Shown piece by piece: positions 28,643 through 34,208 of a stretch of DNA of 64,000 bases. Under the pieces are notes generated by a model that saw only the letters and a list, made by a program, of their open reading frames with translations, was not told where the DNA came from and did not search any database. The stretch covers positions 7,064-71,063 of the forward strand of contig CAWJNP010000025.1 of NCBI GenBank assembly GCA_963844255.1, given 5' to 3'. The stretch comes from an uncultured beta proteobacterium (GTDB lineage: Bacteria; Pseudomonadota; Gammaproteobacteria; Burkholderiales; SG8-39). Position numbers and translations under genes: made by a program. Within the stretch, counting starts at the first letter, position 1. Each line of letters opens with the position of its first letter.

Positions 28643-29176
28643 ATGATACGCAGGTGCTTACGTGCTGCAACGGCAGCGCTCATTGCAGCGCCTCTCGCGG
28701 CACTGGCGCAACCCTCGATGAACCTGCGAAGCAATGGCCTGCAACTCTCCGTACGGACCCTGGGCTATGAGCAGGCAGCTTCTTTCTATCTTGCGCGAGG
28801 CGTGCCGGCGGCCCTGGTCGAGCGCTACGCGCGCTCCTGCGTGGTGAACGTTGCACTGCATAGCGATTCCTCCGCGAAGACAATCGCCACCCGGCTCGAA
28901 GACTGGCGCGTGGAACCGGAGCACGGTACGGCGCAGAAGATCCGCGGCCGCAGCGACTGGCTGCGCGAACTGGATCAAGCCGCAACGGGAACTGCCGCGC
29001 GAATGGCGTTTGAATGGGCTCAGCTCCCGGAGACTGCGGAATTGCATCCCGGTGATTCGATCCAGGGGATGTTATCCGTGCCCATCAATCGGAACAGCGC
29101 ATTCACCCTGTACGTACGCTGGGACTCAGGAGAAAAAGGCAATGAAGCACGGATCCAGAAAATTCGTTGCGACTGA
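28643..29176 (+). CDS. Hypothetical exported protein (first gene of the thiol/sulfur operon)
   Basis: Signal peptide ending ALAQ; two Cys in the mature part; overlaps the next gene; start uncertain. Confidence 0.6.
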   Translation: MIRRCLRAATAALIAAPLAALAQPSMNLRSNGLQLSVRTLGYEQAASFYLARGVPAALVERYARSCVVNVALHSDSSAKTIATRLEDWRVEPEHGTAQKIRGRSDWLRELDQAATGTAARMAFEWAQLPETAELHPGDSIQGMLSVPINRNSAFTLYVRWDSGEKGNEARIQKIRCD

Positions 29177-29702
29177 ACGTCGCGCCTTTTTGCTCGGCGC
29201 AATGGGGATCTCCCTGCTCGGCGCGCACAGGGCCCGCGCGGCACAGCCGGACGTATTTGCACGTGTTGGCACGCGCACACAAGCGCCCGACTTTTCGCTA
29301 GAGGACGCCGACCGCAAGTTGTGGCGCCTTTCAGCACTGCGAGACCGGGTGGTGGTGGTGAATTTCTGGGCGAGCTGGTGCCCACCCTGCAGAAAAGAGA
29401 TGGCATCGCTGGATAGCCTGTACCGCGCCGTCGCCCCGAAAGGCGCATTGGTGCTTGGGATCAATGCCGGTGAACCCTGGGAGGCGGTGGCCGCATTTTC
29501 CGCGGCGTTCGATCCTGCGCTCCGATTCCCGCTGCTGATCGACGAAAAAGGAAGCGTGATGCGCGACTGGCAAGTGAACGCGCTGCCATCGACTTACGTC
29601 ATCGATCGCAGCGGCCGGATTGTCCTGCGCGCCCTTGGCGGACGCGATTTCAGCCGCCCGGACGCAATAGAGGACATCACGAAACTTACGGCCGGCGGCT
29701 AG
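29142..29702 (+). CDS. TlpA-family thiol:disulfide oxidoreductase
   Basis: VNFWASWCPPCRKEM, APDFSL, LPSTYVID; Tat-like ERRAFLL leader. Confidence 0.9.
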   Translation: MKHGSRKFVATERRAFLLGAMGISLLGAHRARAAQPDVFARVGTRTQAPDFSLEDADRKLWRLSALRDRVVVVNFWASWCPPCRKEMASLDSLYRAVAPKGALVLGINAGEPWEAVAAFSAAFDPALRFPLLIDEKGSVMRDWQVNALPSTYVIDRSGRIVLRALGGRDFSRPDAIEDITKLTAGG

Positions 29703-29742
29703 AGCCCCGTTAAAACATTTTTCCACCGGAAAGGAGTCTGAA

Positions 29743-30252
29743 ATGAGAAAGCATTTGAATTTAATAGTCGCCACGGCTGCTACGGCAGTCATGGCCTTGT
29801 CAGGCGGAACTGCGGCGCTGGCTGCAGGCTACGACGACCGCGATGCGCTGCAGGGCGCCAAGGAGGTCAAGGTCGCCTTCGACATTACGGCCGGTGACGC
29901 GAAGGTGCTCTTGGCGCGGCTAAACATCATCGACGAAACGCGCCAATCGCTGATCAATCAGGGCGTGACGCCACACTTCATCATCTCGTTTCGTGGCGGT
30001 GCTACGAAGCTTGTGCAGACCGACATGTCGAAGGTAAAGGCCGAAGACCGGGAGATCGCGACAAAAATCGCCGCGAAGCTCGCCGAGATGCGCAGTTCGA
30101 AAGGCGTCGACAACGTCGAACAATGTGCGGTCGCGGTTCGCGAGCAGGGCACGCGCCCGGAAGACGTGGTGCCTTCGGTGAAGGTCGTCGGGAACGCATG
30201 GATATCCCTGATGGCTTACCAGAATCGCGGATATGCCTACATCTCGCCTTGA
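29743..30252 (+). CDS. Exported DsrE/DsrF-like protein
   Basis: AAGGAG RBS; signal peptide; KVAFD, EQC.VA, YQNRGYAYI C-terminus. Confidence 0.8.
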   Translation: MRKHLNLIVATAATAVMALSGGTAALAAGYDDRDALQGAKEVKVAFDITAGDAKVLLARLNIIDETRQSLINQGVTPHFIISFRGGATKLVQTDMSKVKAEDREIATKIAAKLAEMRSSKGVDNVEQCAVAVREQGTRPEDVVPSVKVVGNAWISLMAYQNRGYAYISP

Positions 30253-30279
30253 TATTCTGATTCCCTGCCGGAGACCATC

Positions 30280-31275
30280 TTGAGAACCTTGACGGCACTG
30301 CTGCTCTTCTCGCTTGCCGGCCTTGCCTGCGCCGAGGACCGGATCATCGTCGACCGTGGCTACGTACAGGAAGCGGCCAGGCGTGACGTCCCGATCCTCG
30401 ATGTGCGTAATGCCGTCGAATACCGGAAGGGGCATCTTCCCGGCGCGATCAACATCGGGGATGTCGCACAGGTCCTGCGCGACAGCAACGCCGAGGACTT
30501 CATCGCCATCGAGCGAATCGAAAAAATCCTCGGCGCCGCCGGCATCGATCCGGCGCACGAGATCATCGTCTACGGAAATCGTGGCGCGTGGAATCCCTAT
30601 TTCGGCCGGTACACGATGCAGTATTTCGGCGGCAGGCAGGCTCGCGTGTATCACGACGGGATCGAAGACTGGATCGCCGCCGGTCTCCCGGTTTCACGCG
30701 AAGAGACCAGGCGGCCACCGATTTCGCTTACGCTGAAACCCAACCCCGATGCAAGCGTATCCACGCGCGACGTCGTTGCACGGCTGAACCGGAGCGACGT
30801 GCAGATCGTCGATGCACGCACGCCGCGCGAGTTCTCGGGTGAAGACATTCGCGCCATCCGGGGCGGCCATATTCCGGGAGCAGTCAACATTCCGTACGAA
30901 CAGAACTGGGTCGATCCTTCCACACCGCAAAAACTCGCGAAGCGCGAAGTGGCCGATTCGTCGGGGATGTCGCTCAAACCGGTGGAGAAATTGAAGGCGC
31001 TTTATGCCGGTCTCGATCCAAGCAAGGAGACAATCGTCTACTGTCAGAGCGGCGCTCGCGCGGCCGAAACCGCCGGCGTATTGCAGCAACTGGGCTTTAC
31101 CAAGGTCAAGGTCTATGACTCGTCCTGGCTGGGCTACGGCAATACGCTCGATGCACCGGCCAACAAAGTGACCTTCTTCAACGTCGGACTCCTGAACGGC
31201 AAAATCGCCGCAATGCAAAACCGCATTGATCATCTTGAGCGCGAACTTGCCGGGACGAAGGCAGGCGGGAAATAG
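30280..31275 (+). CDS. Exported tandem-rhodanese sulfurtransferase with a coiled-coil tail
   Basis: Signal peptide; LDVR..EY.KGHLPGA, RGGHIPGA, active loop CQSGAR, YDSSW. Confidence 0.88.
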   Translation: MRTLTALLLFSLAGLACAEDRIIVDRGYVQEAARRDVPILDVRNAVEYRKGHLPGAINIGDVAQVLRDSNAEDFIAIERIEKILGAAGIDPAHEIIVYGNRGAWNPYFGRYTMQYFGGRQARVYHDGIEDWIAAGLPVSREETRRPPISLTLKPNPDASVSTRDVVARLNRSDVQIVDARTPREFSGEDIRAIRGGHIPGAVNIPYEQNWVDPSTPQKLAKREVADSSGMSLKPVEKLKALYAGLDPSKETIVYCQSGARAAETAGVLQQLGFTKVKVYDSSWLGYGNTLDAPANKVTFFNVGLLNGKIAAMQNRIDHLERELAGTKAGGK

Positions 31276-31349: not shown

Positions 31350-31423
31350 TCAGGAAACATCACTACGCGGCAGAAGTCCTCAATGAACGGATTGAGGGTC
31401 AGGCCAGGCGCTGAATCCGACGG

Positions 31424-32293
31424 CTACGAGGATTTGAGCCGCAGCGCCGCCGCCTGCCGCAGACGGCGTTCCTCACCGATTGCACGCAGCCTTTCAAGCT
31501 CGACCGGATCGACCCGGCCGTAGCGCTCCCGCCAGCCCGGGTCTTCCTTCCACCTGAAGGGTGCCTCCAGGGTGGTGCGCGGCCCGGGCGCGGTTTCCAG
31601 CAACCCCAGTGCTGTCGCGACGACCTCGCGTTGCATGTCCGCGCGCCAGGGATAGCCGCAGGGATTGCCAAGCGGGAAGTCGGTAAAGACGAACCGTGCG
31701 ACGCCACAGTGTTCAACCACGTCGCGCGCCGATCCGATCATGACGGTCGGCAGGCCGTTGGCCTCGAGGTGCCGTGCAACCAGACTCACGGTCTGGTGGC
31801 ACACCGGTCACAAGGCGCTGAGCAGGACCGCGTCGACCCGGTCCTCGCGCAGTCGCGCAAGGATTTCGGGGACATCTTCCTCGATCGTCTTACGCTGACT
31901 GTATTCGGTCGGCACGCCGTGAAAGCGCGCCGCGATTGCGCGGATCATGCCTTCGCGTGCGAGGCCGGCTGCGGTCTTGATCGGCATGAAACTCTCGCGA
32001 TCCTCGGTATGGGTCGACTCGCGATCCCATGCGAGGTTGTCGGTATTGAGTTCGGGCAGTGGATCGGTCATGCCCGACCAGACATGCTTGACACCTTTTT
32101 CGTCTCGGTTCGAGCGGTCGGGAGGATTTGCGGTGGTGACCAGGCCGATGCGTGCTTCGGCCAGCGGCTTCGCCAGTCGCGCGAATGGAGTCTCGGCATG
32201 GGTCGCCCAGACATAGTCCTTCTCGTACCCGAGTGCCCGGTAGTAGTCGCGGGTACGTTCGATATAGCGGATCGGCTCTTCGTTGTCTGGCAT
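31424..32293 (-). CDS. GrdB/PrdB-like selenoprotein B family protein; UGA at 31810-31808 read as Sec (289 aa)
   Basis: ORFs 31808..32353 and 31424..31804 are in one frame, joined by one TGA: DAVLLSAL-U-PVCHQTVSLVARHLEANGLPTV; N-terminal PFARL.KPL.EARIGLVTT; C-terminal DFPLGNPCG. Confidence 0.88.
31772..31807 (-). promoter_or_regulatory. Candidate bacterial SECIS element
   Basis: Immediately 3' of the UGA: GUGC-C-ACCAGAC [CGUGA] GUCUGGU-U-GCAC; 17 nt between UGA and the loop, G at loop position 2. Confidence 0.75.
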
Positions 32294-32419
32294 GGCGGAA
32301 ATCCTGTTCTTGTGCTGTGCAGGAAATTCTACCCGTTCATGTCCGGGCCGCAAGCGCTTGCAGCCGGCCGCATGCTAGTCTGCCATTTCGGCAATTCGAC
32401 TTCCGGGAGCAGGCACGCC

Positions 32420-33520
32420 ATGTCGCATTCGCACCCCGAATATCCCGGCACCGCCGGCGTGCTCGGCGGGCTTCGGTTCGTCACCTGCAGCATGACCGAA
32501 TCAGGCCACGCCCACGCGCATTCGCGCCGCCGTGAAACCATCGTCTCGGGCAAGCGCGCCAGGGTCATCGACGTCCACGCCCACTGCGCCGTGCCCGAGG
32601 CCATGGCACTTGTGGGTCTCAAGCTCGGCGGGCCAGCCATGCGTCCCGACCTGCACATGGGCACGGCACTGGCGGAGCGGCTGGCCGCGATGGACGCGCA
32701 GGGCATCGACATGGAAGTGCTCAGCATCAATCCCTGGTGGTACAAGGCCGAGCGCGACCTGGCAGAGCAGATCATCCGGATCCAGAACGAAAAGCTCGCC
32801 GAAGCCTGTGCCGCCACGCCCGATCGCTTCCTCGGCTTTGCCTCAGTCGCACTCCAGCACCCGGAACTTGCGGCAAGGCAACTCGAGGAAGGCGTGAAGA
32901 AATACGGCCTGCGCGGCGCGGCGATCGGCGGAAGCGTGGCCGGATTCGAACTCAGCGACCCGAAGTTCCACCCGTTCTGGGCCAAGGCCGAAGAACTCGG
33001 TGTGCTGGTCTTCATCCACCCGCAGGCGGACGGCGCGACCACCGATATCGCCAAACGCCTCAAGGGCGCCGGCGGCCTCGAGAACGTGATCGGATTTCCG
33101 CTCGAGACCACGATCGCGCTCTCGCACCTGATCTTCGAGGGGACGCTGGATCGCTTTCCCGGTGTGAAGATCTGCGGCGCGCACGGCGGCGGCTACCTGC
33201 CCTCCTACATGGCACGCTCGGACCGCGGCTGCGTCGCGCGTCCCGACCTGTGCACCGGCGGCCCCGACGGCCCGTTGAAGAAGAACCCGACCGCGTACCT
33301 CAAGCAGCTCTACTACGACACGATGGTGTTTTCGCCCGAAGCGATCCGCCACCTTGCTGCCGAGGTCGGCGCGGGTCAGCTGATGCTTGGTACCGACTAT
33401 CCGTTTCCGTGGACTACGACCGCGGTGGATGAGGTCATGGACACGCCCGGGCTGTCGGACGCGCAGAAGATCGCGATTCTCGGCGGCACCGCCGCGCGTC
33501 TGCTCGGCATTGCGGCCTAG
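32420..33520 (+). CDS. Amidohydrolase-2 family protein (ACMSD/LigW-like decarboxylase/hydratase)
   Basis: IDVHAH, FIHP, AHGGG, YYDT, GTDYPF. Confidence 0.88.
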   Translation: MSHSHPEYPGTAGVLGGLRFVTCSMTESGHAHAHSRRRETIVSGKRARVIDVHAHCAVPEAMALVGLKLGGPAMRPDLHMGTALAERLAAMDAQGIDMEVLSINPWWYKAERDLAEQIIRIQNEKLAEACAATPDRFLGFASVALQHPELAARQLEEGVKKYGLRGAAIGGSVAGFELSDPKFHPFWAKAEELGVLVFIHPQADGATTDIAKRLKGAGGLENVIGFPLETTIALSHLIFEGTLDRFPGVKICGAHGGGYLPSYMARSDRGCVARPDLCTGGPDGPLKKNPTAYLKQLYYDTMVFSPEAIRHLAAEVGAGQLMLGTDYPFPWTTTAVDEVMDTPGLSDAQKIAILGGTAARLLGIAA

Positions 33521-33530
33521 CCACGGGAGC

Positions 33531-34208
33531 ATGGCCGTGATCACCGTTCACCACTTGAACAACTCCCGCTCGCAACGCGTGCTCTGGCTGCTGGAAGAAC
33601 TCGGCGTCGACTACGAGATCCGGCGCTACCAGCGAGATTCCCAGACCATGCTCGCGCCGCCGGAACTGCGTGCGGTGCATCCACTGGGCAAATCGCCCGT
33701 GATCACCGACGGCGAACTTACGATTGCCGAATCCGGCGCGATCGTGGAATACCTCGTCGAGCGCTACGGCAAGGGAAGGCTGATCCCGGCTGCAGGAACC
33801 CCCGAGCGCCTGCGCTATACCTACTGGTTGCATTTCGCCGAGGGCACCGCGATGCCGCCTCTCGTGATGAAACTCGTGTTCGGACGGATCGCCAACGGGC
33901 CTATGCCGTTCTTCGTCAAGCCAATTGCGCGTGGCATCGCGAACAAGGTGCTGACGAGCTTTATCGATCCGAACCTGAACGCCCAGTTTGATTTCATGGA
34001 GGCCGAACTCGGCAGGTCCGCCTGGTTTGCCGGCGGCGAATTCAGCGCGGCCGACATCCAGATGAGCTTCCCGCTCGAAGCAGCCGCCGCCCGTGGCGGG
34101 CTGGATGCTTCACGGCCGAGGATGATGGCATTTCTGGATCGGATTCATGCGATGCCGGCCTACCAGCGCGCCCTGGAGAAGGGTGGTCCGTTCGCACTGC
34201 TGCGTTAG
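33531..34208 (+). CDS. Glutathione S-transferase
   Basis: HHLNNSRSQRVLWLLEEL, HPLGKSPV, ESGAI, FSAADIQM. Confidence 0.92.
   Translation: MAVITVHHLNNSRSQRVLWLLEELGVDYEIRRYQRDSQTMLAPPELRAVHPLGKSPVITDGELTIAESGAIVEYLVERYGKGRLIPAAGTPERLRYTYWLHFAEGTAMPPLVMKLVFGRIANGPMPFFVKPIARGIANKVLTSFIDPNLNAQFDFMEAELGRSAWFAGGEFSAADIQMSFPLEAAAARGGLDASRPRMMAFLDRIHAMPAYQRALEKGGPFALLR

What the first reader, a model, noticed from the sequence alone, without database searches (positions are those of the whole stretch)
31424..32293. Hidden stand-alone selenoprotein: GrdB/PrdB-like gene with in-frame UGA (U-P-V-C) and a SECIS hairpin
Seen in sequence: two annotated ORFs share one frame and are separated only by TGA (31810-31808). 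Read through, they give ...DAVLLSAL-U-PVCHQTVSLVARHLEANG..., with Sec at codon 162 of 289. Directly 3' of the UGA is a hairpin (7-bp perfect upper stem, 4-bp lower stem, CGUGA loop 17 nt after the UGA). Established knowledge: selenoprotein B subunits of glycine/betaine (GrdB/GrdH) and D-proline (PrdB) reductases carry a UxxC active site in this context, and bacterial SECIS elements sit just 3' of the UGA. Inference: no GrdA, GrdC/D, GrdE or PrdA gene is in the window, and the host looks like a betaproteobacterium rather than a Stickland fermenter. This may be an orphan Sec-dependent reductase with an unknown substrate and partners. Standard gene callers would split it or call it a pseudogene.
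Basis: partly seen in the sequence, partly recalled or inferred. Interest (0 to 1): 0.85.

Follow-up and report, generated by a model that had tools for sequence, protein, structure and literature searches.

The report
Stand-alone PrdB-like selenoprotein gene
This is a genuine selenocysteine-encoding gene of a PrdB-like family that is common in soil and freshwater Proteobacteria and routinely split by gene callers; the family was already catalogued, but what it does without its usual partner proteins is still unknown.

Summary
Window 32293..31424 (-) is one 289-codon frame with a single in-frame TGA (31810-31808), giving U-P-V-C-H-Q. TGA sits at the same column in 13 of 13 orthologs of the genus and in 66 of 80 species-representative loci. 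The other 14 have TGC/TGT.

The hairpin 3' of the UGA is real. Six consecutive codons are invariant exactly over it. Its 7-bp stem is paired in 398 of 399 cells, with two fully compensatory pairs. Cys forms lose it.

selA, selB, selD and tRNA-Sec are present. selB scored over its cut-off in 14 of 14 genomes with the Sec form and 6 of 14 with the Cys form.

No PrdA/GrdE or GrdA homolog was found in this genome, and no PrdA/GrdE in five near-complete congeners. No neighbour is broadly conserved. A divergent GST is conserved within the genus only.

'Proline reductase PrdB' UxxC selenoproteins were catalogued in aerobic marine metagenomes and in non-Stickland bacteria in 2005-2008 (PMC1088965, PMC2398784, PMC1794560). 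This is a new member of a known kind, and its function is unresolved.

The parts
31424..32293 (-). PrdB-like selenoprotein gene, 289 codons plus TAG stop. ATG at 32293 is preceded by an AGGA Shine-Dalgarno-like motif.
   Evidence: Searches show the frame and start. NCBIfam TIGR04483 gives E 3.1e-20 over profile positions 20-232 of 238. Orthologs align from residues 1-3.
31808..31810 (-). UGA codon 162, read as selenocysteine (first residue of U-P-V-C)
   Evidence: TGA is in the same column in 13 of 13 orthologs and in 66 of 80 species loci, with TGC/TGT in the other 14. Two contigs bridge it with no other letter listed.
31774..31802 (-). SECIS hairpin inside the coding sequence. The conserved 7-bp upper stem is 31797-31791 / 31785-31779 and the apical loop CGUGA is 31790-31786. 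A C/U mismatch separates it from a lower stem 31802-31799 / 31777-31774, of which only the two inner pairs are conserved.
   Evidence: Fold. Six consecutive invariant codons, H166-L171. 398 of 399 upper-stem cells are paired, with pairs G-C/A-U 32:25 and C-G/U-A 53:4 and no unpaired intermediates. 0 of 500 shuffles reach the covariation score. Cys forms have 115 of 147 cells paired.
33531..34208 (+). Glutathione S-transferase gene, the only neighbour conserved with the Sec ortholog, and only within this genus. Its link to the selenoprotein is tentative.
   Evidence: Pfam GST_N/GST_C and no equivalog. It is a divergent neighbour in 11 of 12 ortholog loci; the 12th ends at its contig edge. Only 6 of 80 wider loci have a GST-like hit. 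Start.
32420..33520 (+). Amidohydrolase_2 gene lying between the selenoprotein gene and the GST. It is lineage-specific and probably not part of the unit.
   Evidence: Pfam PF04909 E 1.8e-39. Among ortholog loci it is present only in G007 (1 of 12) besides the window. Start.

Best explanation
The gene encodes a 289-residue cytosolic selenoprotein of the PrdB/GrdB superfamily.

Shown or strongly supported: UGA-162 is decoded as selenocysteine by the genome's SelA/SelB/SelD/tRNA-Sec system. Decoding is directed by an in-frame SECIS hairpin whose G-containing apical loop starts 17 nt after the UGA.

Inferred: Sec162 and Cys165 (U-P-V-C-H-Q) sit between a beta-strand (155-159) and the start of a helix (165-178). 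They form a selenol/thiol redox pair. Sec attacks a substrate, Cys165 resolves the adduct to a selenenylsulfide, and a thiol system (thioredoxin or glutathione) re-reduces it.

The protein does this without a pyruvoyl PrdA/GrdE subunit or GrdA. It is therefore not a D-proline or glycine reductase, and its substrate is unknown. In this genus the conserved divergent GST suggests glutathione-linked chemistry.

The confidence of 0.9 refers to 'genuine Sec-decoding PrdB-like gene that works without PrdA'. The redox-pair mechanism is about 0.6. The glutathione link is about 0.25.
For: Frame and motif.

Family: TIGR04483 E 3.1e-20 over nearly the whole profile, with weaker GrdH/GrdF/GrdB matches.

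Sec/Cys pairing: 120 of 120 best full-length homologs have Cys. The 80 loci have TGA 66, TGC 9 and TGT 5.

Conservation of the TGA: 13 of 13 orthologs at 71-84% protein identity.

SECIS:
- Of 120 columns with an invariant degenerate residue, only 15 have an invariant codon. Six of these are consecutive over the hairpin, and the next-longest run is 2.
- Two compensatory pairs with no broken intermediates. 85.5% of cells are paired, against 24-38% when the partner columns are slid.
- The Ser codon and the loop differ in Cys forms, and only 2 of 21 Cys forms keep 7 of 7 pairs.
- A 36%-identical Sec paralog on contig C84 has the same hairpin architecture.

Machinery: selA 565 bits, selB 431 bits, selD 297 bits, and tRNA-SeC (tca) next to selAB. 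selB is over its cut-off in 14 of 14 genomes with the Sec form and in 6 of 14 with the Cys form. No Sec-form gene was seen in a genome without selB in that set.

Orphan status: PF09338 has 0 matches in the own genome (84% complete) and 0 of 5 in congeners that are 97-99% complete. PF04723 has 0 matches in the own genome. No neighbour is shared by more than 23 of 80 loci within 8 kb, or by more than 11 of 80 as an adjacent same-strand ORF.

Geometry: strand-Sec-helix arrangement in the AlphaFold model.

GST: 11 of 12 ortholog loci.
Against: There is no direct evidence of selenium in the protein and no raw reads; only contigs were laid.

The hairpin's stability is unremarkable for this GC-rich sequence (z -1.42). 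Five of its seven upper-stem pairs never vary, so the covariation rests on two pairs. Related sequences can inflate shuffle tests.

One congener with the TGA ortholog, G009 (99% complete, 290 contigs), gave no selB match at E <= 1e-60.

All ten congeners tested otherwise have the machinery whether or not they carry the Sec ortholog, so within the genus the test gave no contrast.

The PF09338 and PF04723 searches had no positive control, because nothing rang in the 14 control genomes.

All curated family models score below their cut-offs.

The structure model is only moderate (pLDDT 67.6), and no solved fold matched at E <= 0.001. The catalytic geometry is therefore weakly supported.

The GST link fails outside the genus (6 of 80 loci).
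Confidence: 0.9

Rival explanations
1. The TGA is a true stop. The locus is a pseudogene, or a gene split into two polypeptides of 161 and about 126 residues.
For: Table 11 gives two ORFs. Databases hold many such fragments: 25 N-terminal and 28 C-terminal fragments among 149 aligned representatives.
Against: The same TGA is kept in 13 of 13 orthologs at 70-78% nucleotide identity and in 66 of 80 species loci, and no other stops appear. Synonymous sites are frozen exactly over a covarying hairpin. The Sec form co-occurs with selB in 14 of 14 genomes. The active-site motif straddles the break.
Confidence: 0.03
2. It is the B subunit of a conventional D-proline or glycine/betaine reductase whose PrdA/GrdE, GrdA and GrdC/D partners are encoded elsewhere or are missing from the assembly.
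For: The best family match is PrdB. The own genome is only 83.7% complete. The partner searches lacked a positive control.
Against: PF09338 gave no match in the own genome or in 5 congeners that are 97-99% complete. PF04723 gave none in the own genome. The PrdB equivalog score is 72.7 against a cut-off of 300. None of the neighbour clusters shared by 8 or more of the 80 loci that I scanned with Pfam (10 representatives) is a Prd or Grd component. The hosts are Burkholderiales, Reyranella and Hyphomicrobiaceae rather than amino-acid fermenters, judging from record titles.
Confidence: 0.03
3. The gene is a real selenoprotein, but it is only a general thiol-disulfide (antioxidant-type) oxidoreductase. 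It has no dedicated small-molecule substrate and does no C-X bond cleavage of the PrdB/GrdB kind.
For: It has a UxxC motif at a strand-helix junction like thioredoxin-type proteins. No partner or operon is conserved. The Sargasso Sea paper lists PrdB among thiol-dependent redox selenoproteins with a UxxC motif (PMC1088965, Table 3 passage).
Against: About 100 positions besides the motif are invariant across the 14 sequences of A1, including H166, Q167, C196, C212 and a DFPLGN block. This suggests a specific active site, but A1 is shallow at 63-68% identity. Several paralogs coexist in one genome, which fits substrate diversification. Paralogous forms are fused to adenylate-forming enzymes.
Confidence: 0.3
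4. UGA-162 is read through by a route other than Sec, such as near-cognate Trp or Cys insertion.
For: No selenium measurement exists. G009 carries the TGA ortholog but gave no selB match.
Against: A conserved SelB-type hairpin sits at the canonical distance. The complete selABCD set is present. Cys, not Trp, is the alternative residue in all 14 non-TGA loci. The selB co-occurrence is 14 of 14.
Confidence: 0.02

Closest known systems
'Proline reductase PrdB' selenoprotein family of the comparative-genomics catalogues (Zhang, Gladyshev and co-workers: Sargasso Sea 2005, PMC1088965; GOS 2008, PMC2398784; bacterial genomes 2006, PMC1794560)
   Same: It has the UxxC Sec motif, similarity to PrdB/pfam07355, and both Sec and Cys forms. 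It occurs in aerobic or non-Stickland settings. The papers report 42 Sec genes in the Sargasso Sea, 235 Sec and 110 Cys homologs in GOS, and members in Anaeromyxobacter dehalogenans and Geobacter uraniumreducens (passages read).
   Different: I could not check sequence identity between those catalogue entries and this ortholog group. The supplements are closed and no sequences appear in the passages I read. Those data are marine or deltaproteobacterial. This clade is Burkholderiales plus soil and freshwater Alphaproteobacteria. In the passages I read, the papers do not discuss the lack of PrdA.
D-proline reductase subunit PrdB of Clostridioides difficile / Clostridium sticklandii (TIGR04483)
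   Same: It is the best-scoring curated family, matched over profile positions 20-232 of 238. Sec is the first residue of UxxC. The role of Sec as the nucleophile that attacks the substrate is taken from PMC11229817 (passages).
   Different: The score of 72.7 bits is far below the equivalog cut-off of 300. No PrdA was found in the genome. The gene is monocistronic with variable neighbours. It therefore cannot use a PrdA pyruvoyl group to hold the substrate.
Glycine/sarcosine/betaine reductase selenoprotein B (GrdB/GrdF/GrdH; PF07355, TIGR01918)
   Same: There is weak homology over the C-terminal catalytic part (residues about 95-235 against profile positions 279-423) and a UxxC centre.
   Different: It scores below all cut-offs: PF07355 13.7 against 22, and TIGR01918 31.7 against 65.45. 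At about 290 aa it is shorter than these roughly 430-position profiles and lacks their N-terminal part. No GrdA (PF04723) or GrdE (PF09338) was found.
Cys-type orthologs annotated 'glycine reductase' or 'D-proline reductase (dithiol) PrdB' in Bradyrhizobium and relatives
   Same: They are 61-68% identical over the full length, about 291 aa, with the identical C-P-V-C-H-Q context.
   Different: They have Cys (TGC/TGT) instead of Sec, and the hairpin is degraded. All six Bradyrhizobium-labelled genomes tested lack selB. They form one clade of 13 in the quick tree.

Membership tests
Bacterial selenoprotein gene (SelB-dependent UGA decoding) | In-frame UGA conserved among orthologs, with Cys in the homologs that lack it | tested here: met
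   13 of 13 orthologs have TGA. The 80 loci have TGA 66, TGC 9 and TGT 5. 120 of 120 full-length database homologs have Cys.
Bacterial selenoprotein gene (SelB-dependent UGA decoding) | SECIS stem-loop just 3' of the UGA, with a small apical loop that contains a guanosine | tested here: met
   The 5-nt loop CGUGA starts 17 nt after the UGA above a 7-bp stem. Synonymous sites are frozen over it and two pairs are compensatory. [quoted passage not shown] Numeric spacing limits are recalled, not read. Rfam has no matching family.
Bacterial selenoprotein gene (SelB-dependent UGA decoding) | selA, selB, selD and tRNA-Sec in the genome | tested here: met
   All three proteins score over their curated cut-offs. 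tRNA-SeC, anticodon tca, is at C24:59402-59497. selB is present in 14 of 14 other genomes with the Sec form.
Bacterial selenoprotein gene (SelB-dependent UGA decoding) | Selenium physically present at the residue | not testable with these tools
   This needs 75Se labelling or mass spectrometry.
D-proline reductase PrdB (TIGR04483 equivalog) | Score over the equivalog cut-off of 300 bits | tested here: not met
   72.7 bits, E 3.1e-20.
D-proline reductase PrdB (TIGR04483 equivalog) | Pyruvoyl proprotein PrdA (PF09338) encoded with it | tested here: not met
   No PF09338 match in the own genome (84% complete) or in 5 congeners that are 97-99% complete. None is in the window neighbourhood. Caveat: the control genomes did not ring, so there is no positive control.
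D-proline reductase PrdB (TIGR04483 equivalog) | Sec in a UxxC motif | tested here: met
   U162-P-V-C165.
Glycine/sarcosine/betaine reductase protein B (PF07355 / TIGR01918) | Score over the Pfam gathering or NCBIfam subfamily cut-off | tested here: not met
   PF07355 13.7 bits against 22. TIGR01918 31.7 bits against 65.45.
Glycine/sarcosine/betaine reductase protein B (PF07355 / TIGR01918) | GrdA selenoprotein A (PF04723) and GrdE (PF09338) in the genome | tested here: not met
   No match for either in the own genome. The same control caveat applies.
'Proline reductase PrdB' family of the metagenome selenoproteome catalogues | Sequence membership in the catalogued cluster | not testable with these tools
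   Only the table rows (UxxC, pfam07355, counts) were readable. The supplementary sequence lists are closed. Assignment rests on the shared motif and PrdB similarity.

The most novel reading that the evidence does not exclude
This ortholog group is predominantly Sec-containing in Reyranella, Hyphomicrobiaceae, Rhodospirillales and a Burkholderiales clade. It may be a self-sufficient selenoenzyme that performs a PrdB/GrdB-type reductive C-N, C-S or C-X cleavage on an unidentified substrate, without any pyruvoyl subunit. That would be a new enzyme activity in aerobic soil and freshwater Proteobacteria. In the window's genus it may be coupled to glutathione through the conserved divergent GST.
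Probability: 0.3. Interest if true: 0.7.

Novelty: new member of a known kind. Interest (0 to 1): 0.4.

Why it matters
In practical terms, this is a correct rescue of a gene that standard callers split. Of 149 aligned database representatives of the family, 53 are halves cut at the UGA. As a result, protein searches return only Cys forms, even though 66 of 80 species-level loci carry TGA. Annotation pipelines and family models therefore under-represent the Sec form.

Biologically, the family is widespread in aerobic Alpha- and Betaproteobacteria, keeps an expensive Sec residue, and has none of the partners that define proline or glycine reductases. Its substrate is an open question.

Cultured carriers of the Sec form exist, so the question is directly testable. 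By record title these are Reyranella soli NBRC 108950, Reyranella aquatilis KCTC 52223 and Vineibacter terrae CC-CFT640.

The coding-sequence SECIS is also a clean example of RNA structure constraining protein evolution. A Val-to-Ile change co-occurs with a synonymous His change that keeps a base pair.

Tried and rejected

Rfam. No family matched within 31400-32400 at E <= 10.

Gene-neighbourhood route. I clustered 4324 ORFs from the 80 loci. The commonest neighbours were TctC receptors (23 of 80), family III CoA-transferases (19 of 80) and enoyl-CoA hydratases (10 of 80). They lie at scattered offsets and belong to families that, from my own knowledge, are greatly expanded in these taxa. No adjacent same-strand ORF is shared by more than 11 of 80 loci. 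I rejected them as partners.

Fusion route. Two representatives fuse an AMP-binding enzyme to a PrdB-like domain, and one fuses a protein kinase domain. All are of the Cys-type 'VPNCPVCHQ' subfamily. No AMP-binding gene lies within 14 kb of any paralog in this genome. I kept this only as a remark.

Within-genus co-occurrence test. I expected congeners that lack TGA copies (G003-G005) might lack selB. All five genomes tested have both selA and selB, so there was no contrast. The wider test did give a contrast.

Public runs. No run held half or more of the sampled words; the best share was 0.36. Only Logan contigs could be laid. RNA-run contigs (X17) lie on the gene at under 95% likeness, so they are from relatives and show nothing about transcription of this gene. 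Parts without cover mean nothing.

Paralog on contig C8. The TGA counted there lies in an out-of-frame stretch of a frameshifted copy whose active site is Cys. I did not count it as a selenoprotein.

Tree. The careful tree search did not finish, so only the quick tree (SH-aLRT) was used. The direction of Sec/Cys change was not resolved, because the basal node of the ortholog group is an open polytomy.
Full report
OBSERVATION. On the minus strand, ATG 32293 opens a frame that runs to TAG 31426-31424 and is interrupted only by TGA at 31810-31808. Table 11 splits it into two same-frame ORFs, 31808..32353 and 31424..31804. It has a 7-bp stem, a CGUGA loop starting 17 nt after the UGA, a 1x1 mismatch and a 4-bp lower stem. 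The free energy alone is not remarkable (z -1.42; 18 of 200 shuffles fold as well), so the case has to rest on comparison.

FAMILY. The best curated match is PrdB (TIGR04483, E 3.1e-20, 72.7 bits, profile positions 20-232 of 238), followed by GrdH, GrdF and GrdB models over the C-terminal part. All are far below their cut-offs (300 bits; 65.45 for the 'various selenoprotein B' subfamily). Pfam GRDB scores 13.7 against 22. The protein is therefore a remote relative of the B subunits and not a member of any curated family model. No solved structure is related by sequence.

IS THE UGA A SEC CODON? The word-indexed protein search found 3860 relatives at E <= 1e-3 among the 8000 candidates scored. 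The 120 best are all about 291 aa and 62-68% identical, and all carry Cys at the UGA column within C-P-V-C-H-Q. That all-Cys picture is a gene-calling artefact. In whole genomes, 12 other species of the same genus carry an ortholog (71-84% identity) with exactly one in-frame stop, a TGA. It sits in the same column in 13 of 13, the window's genome included, and seven Cys paralog loci have TGC or TGT. Among the best 80 loci from one-genome-per-species contigs, the codon is TGA in 66, TGC in 9 and TGT in 5. In the 50%-identity representative library, 25 of 149 aligned hits are fragments that end at query residues 155-161 at their own C-terminus. Another 28 start at residues 163-172 at their own N-terminus. 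That is the signature of callers cutting at the UGA.

THE SECIS. Across the 13 orthologs (70-78% nucleotide identity to the window's gene), 120 alignment columns have an invariant degenerate amino acid, and only 15 of those have an invariant codon. Six of the 15 are consecutive, H166 to L171, which is exactly the hairpin. The next-longest run is 2. Across 57 distinct sequences from 79 Sec loci, the 7-bp upper stem is paired in 398 of 399 cells. One pair is G-C in 32 and A-U in 25. Another is C-G in 53 and U-A in 4; the four U-A sequences read CAT for His and ATC/ATT (Ile) in place of Val. Neither pair has any unpaired or wobble intermediate. No shuffle of 500 reaches the covariation score. Sliding the partner columns drops pairing from 85.5% to 24-38%. 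Of the lower stem, only the two inner pairs are conserved.

In 21 Cys-type sequences the same columns pair in 115 of 147 cells. Only 2 of 21 keep all seven pairs, the Ser codon is mostly AGC instead of AGT, and the loop varies. A second Sec paralog in this genome (contig C84, about 36% identical, *PVCHQTVC) has the same hairpin with loop CGUGU. [quoted passage not shown] Rfam holds no matching family.

MACHINERY. selA (565 bits), selB (431 bits) and selD (297 bits) all pass their curated cut-offs. ARAGORN finds tRNA-SeC (tca) about 1 kb beyond selB on contig C24. Within the genus, the machinery is present in nearly all genomes tested, whatever their PrdB-like complement: selB in 4 of 5 and 5 of 5, and selA in 5 of 5. 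The miss is G009, which does carry the TGA ortholog. That test gave no contrast.

Across the wider family it does give one. selB passes its cut-off in 14 of 14 genomes whose copy is TGA, and in 6 of 14 whose copy is Cys; one of the six, G071, is marginal and partial. All six Bradyrhizobium-labelled genomes lack it. These genomes are kin, so I give counts only.

Two contigs from two public studies bridge the codon, with 1 and 0 other letters over their laid parts. No other letter is listed at 31808-31810. These are contigs, not raw reads.

CONTEXT AND PARTNERS. The gene is monocistronic. On one side it is convergent with a cluster encoding a signal-peptide TlpA/ResA-like thiol-disulfide oxidoreductase, a DsrE-like protein and a double-rhodanese sulfurtransferase. 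On the other side it is divergent from an amidohydrolase_2 gene (ATG 32420) followed by a GST (ATG 33531) and a hybrid histidine kinase. In 11 of 12 ortholog loci of the genus the GST is the divergent neighbour, often about 40 nt away. The 12th locus ends at its contig edge. The amidohydrolase is present only in the window and in G007.

Outside the genus the GST link disappears (6 of 80 loci, 4 of them strong hits in loci with the closest orthologs), and nothing replaces it. PF09338 (PrdA/GrdE) and PF04723 (GrdA) give no match in this genome. PF09338 gives none in five congeners that are 97-99% complete. The caveat is that no control genome rang for these families.

MECHANISM. Shown or strongly supported: Sec insertion at residue 162, directed by the in-frame hairpin. 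Inferred: the AlphaFold model (pLDDT 67.6) places U162 between strand 155-159 and helix 165-178, the usual place for a redox-active CxxC/UxxC pair. By analogy with PrdB, Sec attacks the substrate and a partner system regenerates the enzyme (PMC11229817, passages). I propose that Sec162 is the nucleophile, Cys165 resolves the adduct into a selenenylsulfide, and a thiol system re-reduces it. Without a pyruvoyl subunit, the protein must bind its substrate itself or act on a thiol-linked or disulfide substrate. The genus-specific GST makes a glutathione conjugate or glutathione as reductant a reasonable guess (about 0.25). The plain 'general thiol oxidoreductase' reading remains a serious rival (about 0.3).

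EVOLUTION. In a quick maximum-likelihood tree of 95 distinct sequences, the ortholog group holds 74 Sec and 14 Cys rows (5 of the 100 extracted rows were dropped as identical duplicates, and the careful search was unfinished). The Cys rows are one clade of 13 (Bradyrhizobium, Beijerinckiaceae, Stellaceae and unclassified Alphaproteobacteria; SH-aLRT 98) plus Dankookia rubra. The 19 betaproteobacterial rows, all Sec, form one clade (SH-aLRT 100) among alphaproteobacterial Sec forms. The base of the group is unresolved, so the direction of Sec/Cys change is not shown.

COMPARISON WITH WHAT IS KNOWN. 'Proline reductase PrdB' with a UxxC motif is listed with 42 Sec genes in the Sargasso Sea, where the text ranks it third most abundant (PMC1088965, passages and tables). 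It is listed with 235 Sec and 110 Cys homologs in GOS (PMC2398784). It is also listed in Anaeromyxobacter dehalogenans and Geobacter uraniumreducens (PMC1794560, table). Recent reviews list D-proline reductase (TIGR04483) among the most widespread bacterial selenoprotein families (PMC9312934; PMC13188914).

A search for 'PrdB-like', 'GrdB-like', 'selenoprotein B-like' or 'PrdB homolog' found two papers, both on Synergistota fluoroacetate metabolism. The four-term search found none. In the passages I read, none of the papers addresses the absence of PrdA in such organisms or proposes a function. I could not verify that the catalogued sequences are this ortholog group, because the supplements are closed.

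VERDICT. This is a true, stand-alone, PrdB-like selenoprotein gene with a well-supported SECIS. It is a new member of an already catalogued kind rather than a hidden new class. The open and testable part is its function.

Noticed in passing
G000 contig C84:43796-44605 (-), outside the window (locus L033): A second Sec-containing PrdB-like paralog, about 36% identical, with *PVCHQTVC. It carries the same hairpin architecture with loop CGUGU and scores higher against the PrdB model (131.7 bits). TGA-bearing counterparts occur in at least 10 congeners.
   Followed up: partly
G000 contigs C8:3489-4223 and C21:621-1454, outside the window (L037, L035): These are two near-identical Cys-type paralogs (VPNCPVCHQTASL). 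The C8 copy is frameshifted in its N-terminal half, and its 'TGA' lies in the out-of-frame stretch. It may be a pseudogene, a strain variant or bin contamination (4.7% contamination).
   Followed up: partly
window 28851-31275 (+): This cluster encodes a Tat/Sec-signal TlpA/ResA-like thiol-disulfide oxidoreductase (WCPPC), a signal-peptide DsrE-like protein and a double-rhodanese sulfurtransferase. It looks like a periplasmic sulfur-transfer module and is convergent with the selenoprotein gene. It is not conserved next to the orthologs.
   Followed up: partly
proteins P0123, P0126, P0158 (metagenome representatives): A Cys-type PrdB-like domain is fused to the C-terminus of an AMP-binding (adenylate-forming) enzyme in two representatives and to a Ser/Thr protein kinase domain in one. 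The AMP-binding fusions hint at carboxylate or acyl substrates for a paralogous subfamily.
   Followed up: partly
G000 contig C24:55081-59497, outside the window: selA, selB and tRNA-Sec are clustered, with the tRNA about 1 kb downstream of selB. selD is elsewhere (C3:181527-182450).
   Followed up: no
window 31631-33520 (+): A 629-codon plus-strand ORF overlaps the whole selenoprotein gene in antisense. Only its last part, about 366 codons from ATG 32420, is a real gene (amidohydrolase_2). The rest is a GC-rich shadow frame that could mislead gene callers.
   Followed up: yes
loci L095, L109, L117, L123: In four Sec sequences a Val-to-Ile replacement (GTC to ATC/ATT) co-occurs with a synonymous His CAC-to-CAT change, and together they keep a SECIS base pair. 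Here the RNA structure shapes the protein sequence.
   Followed up: yes
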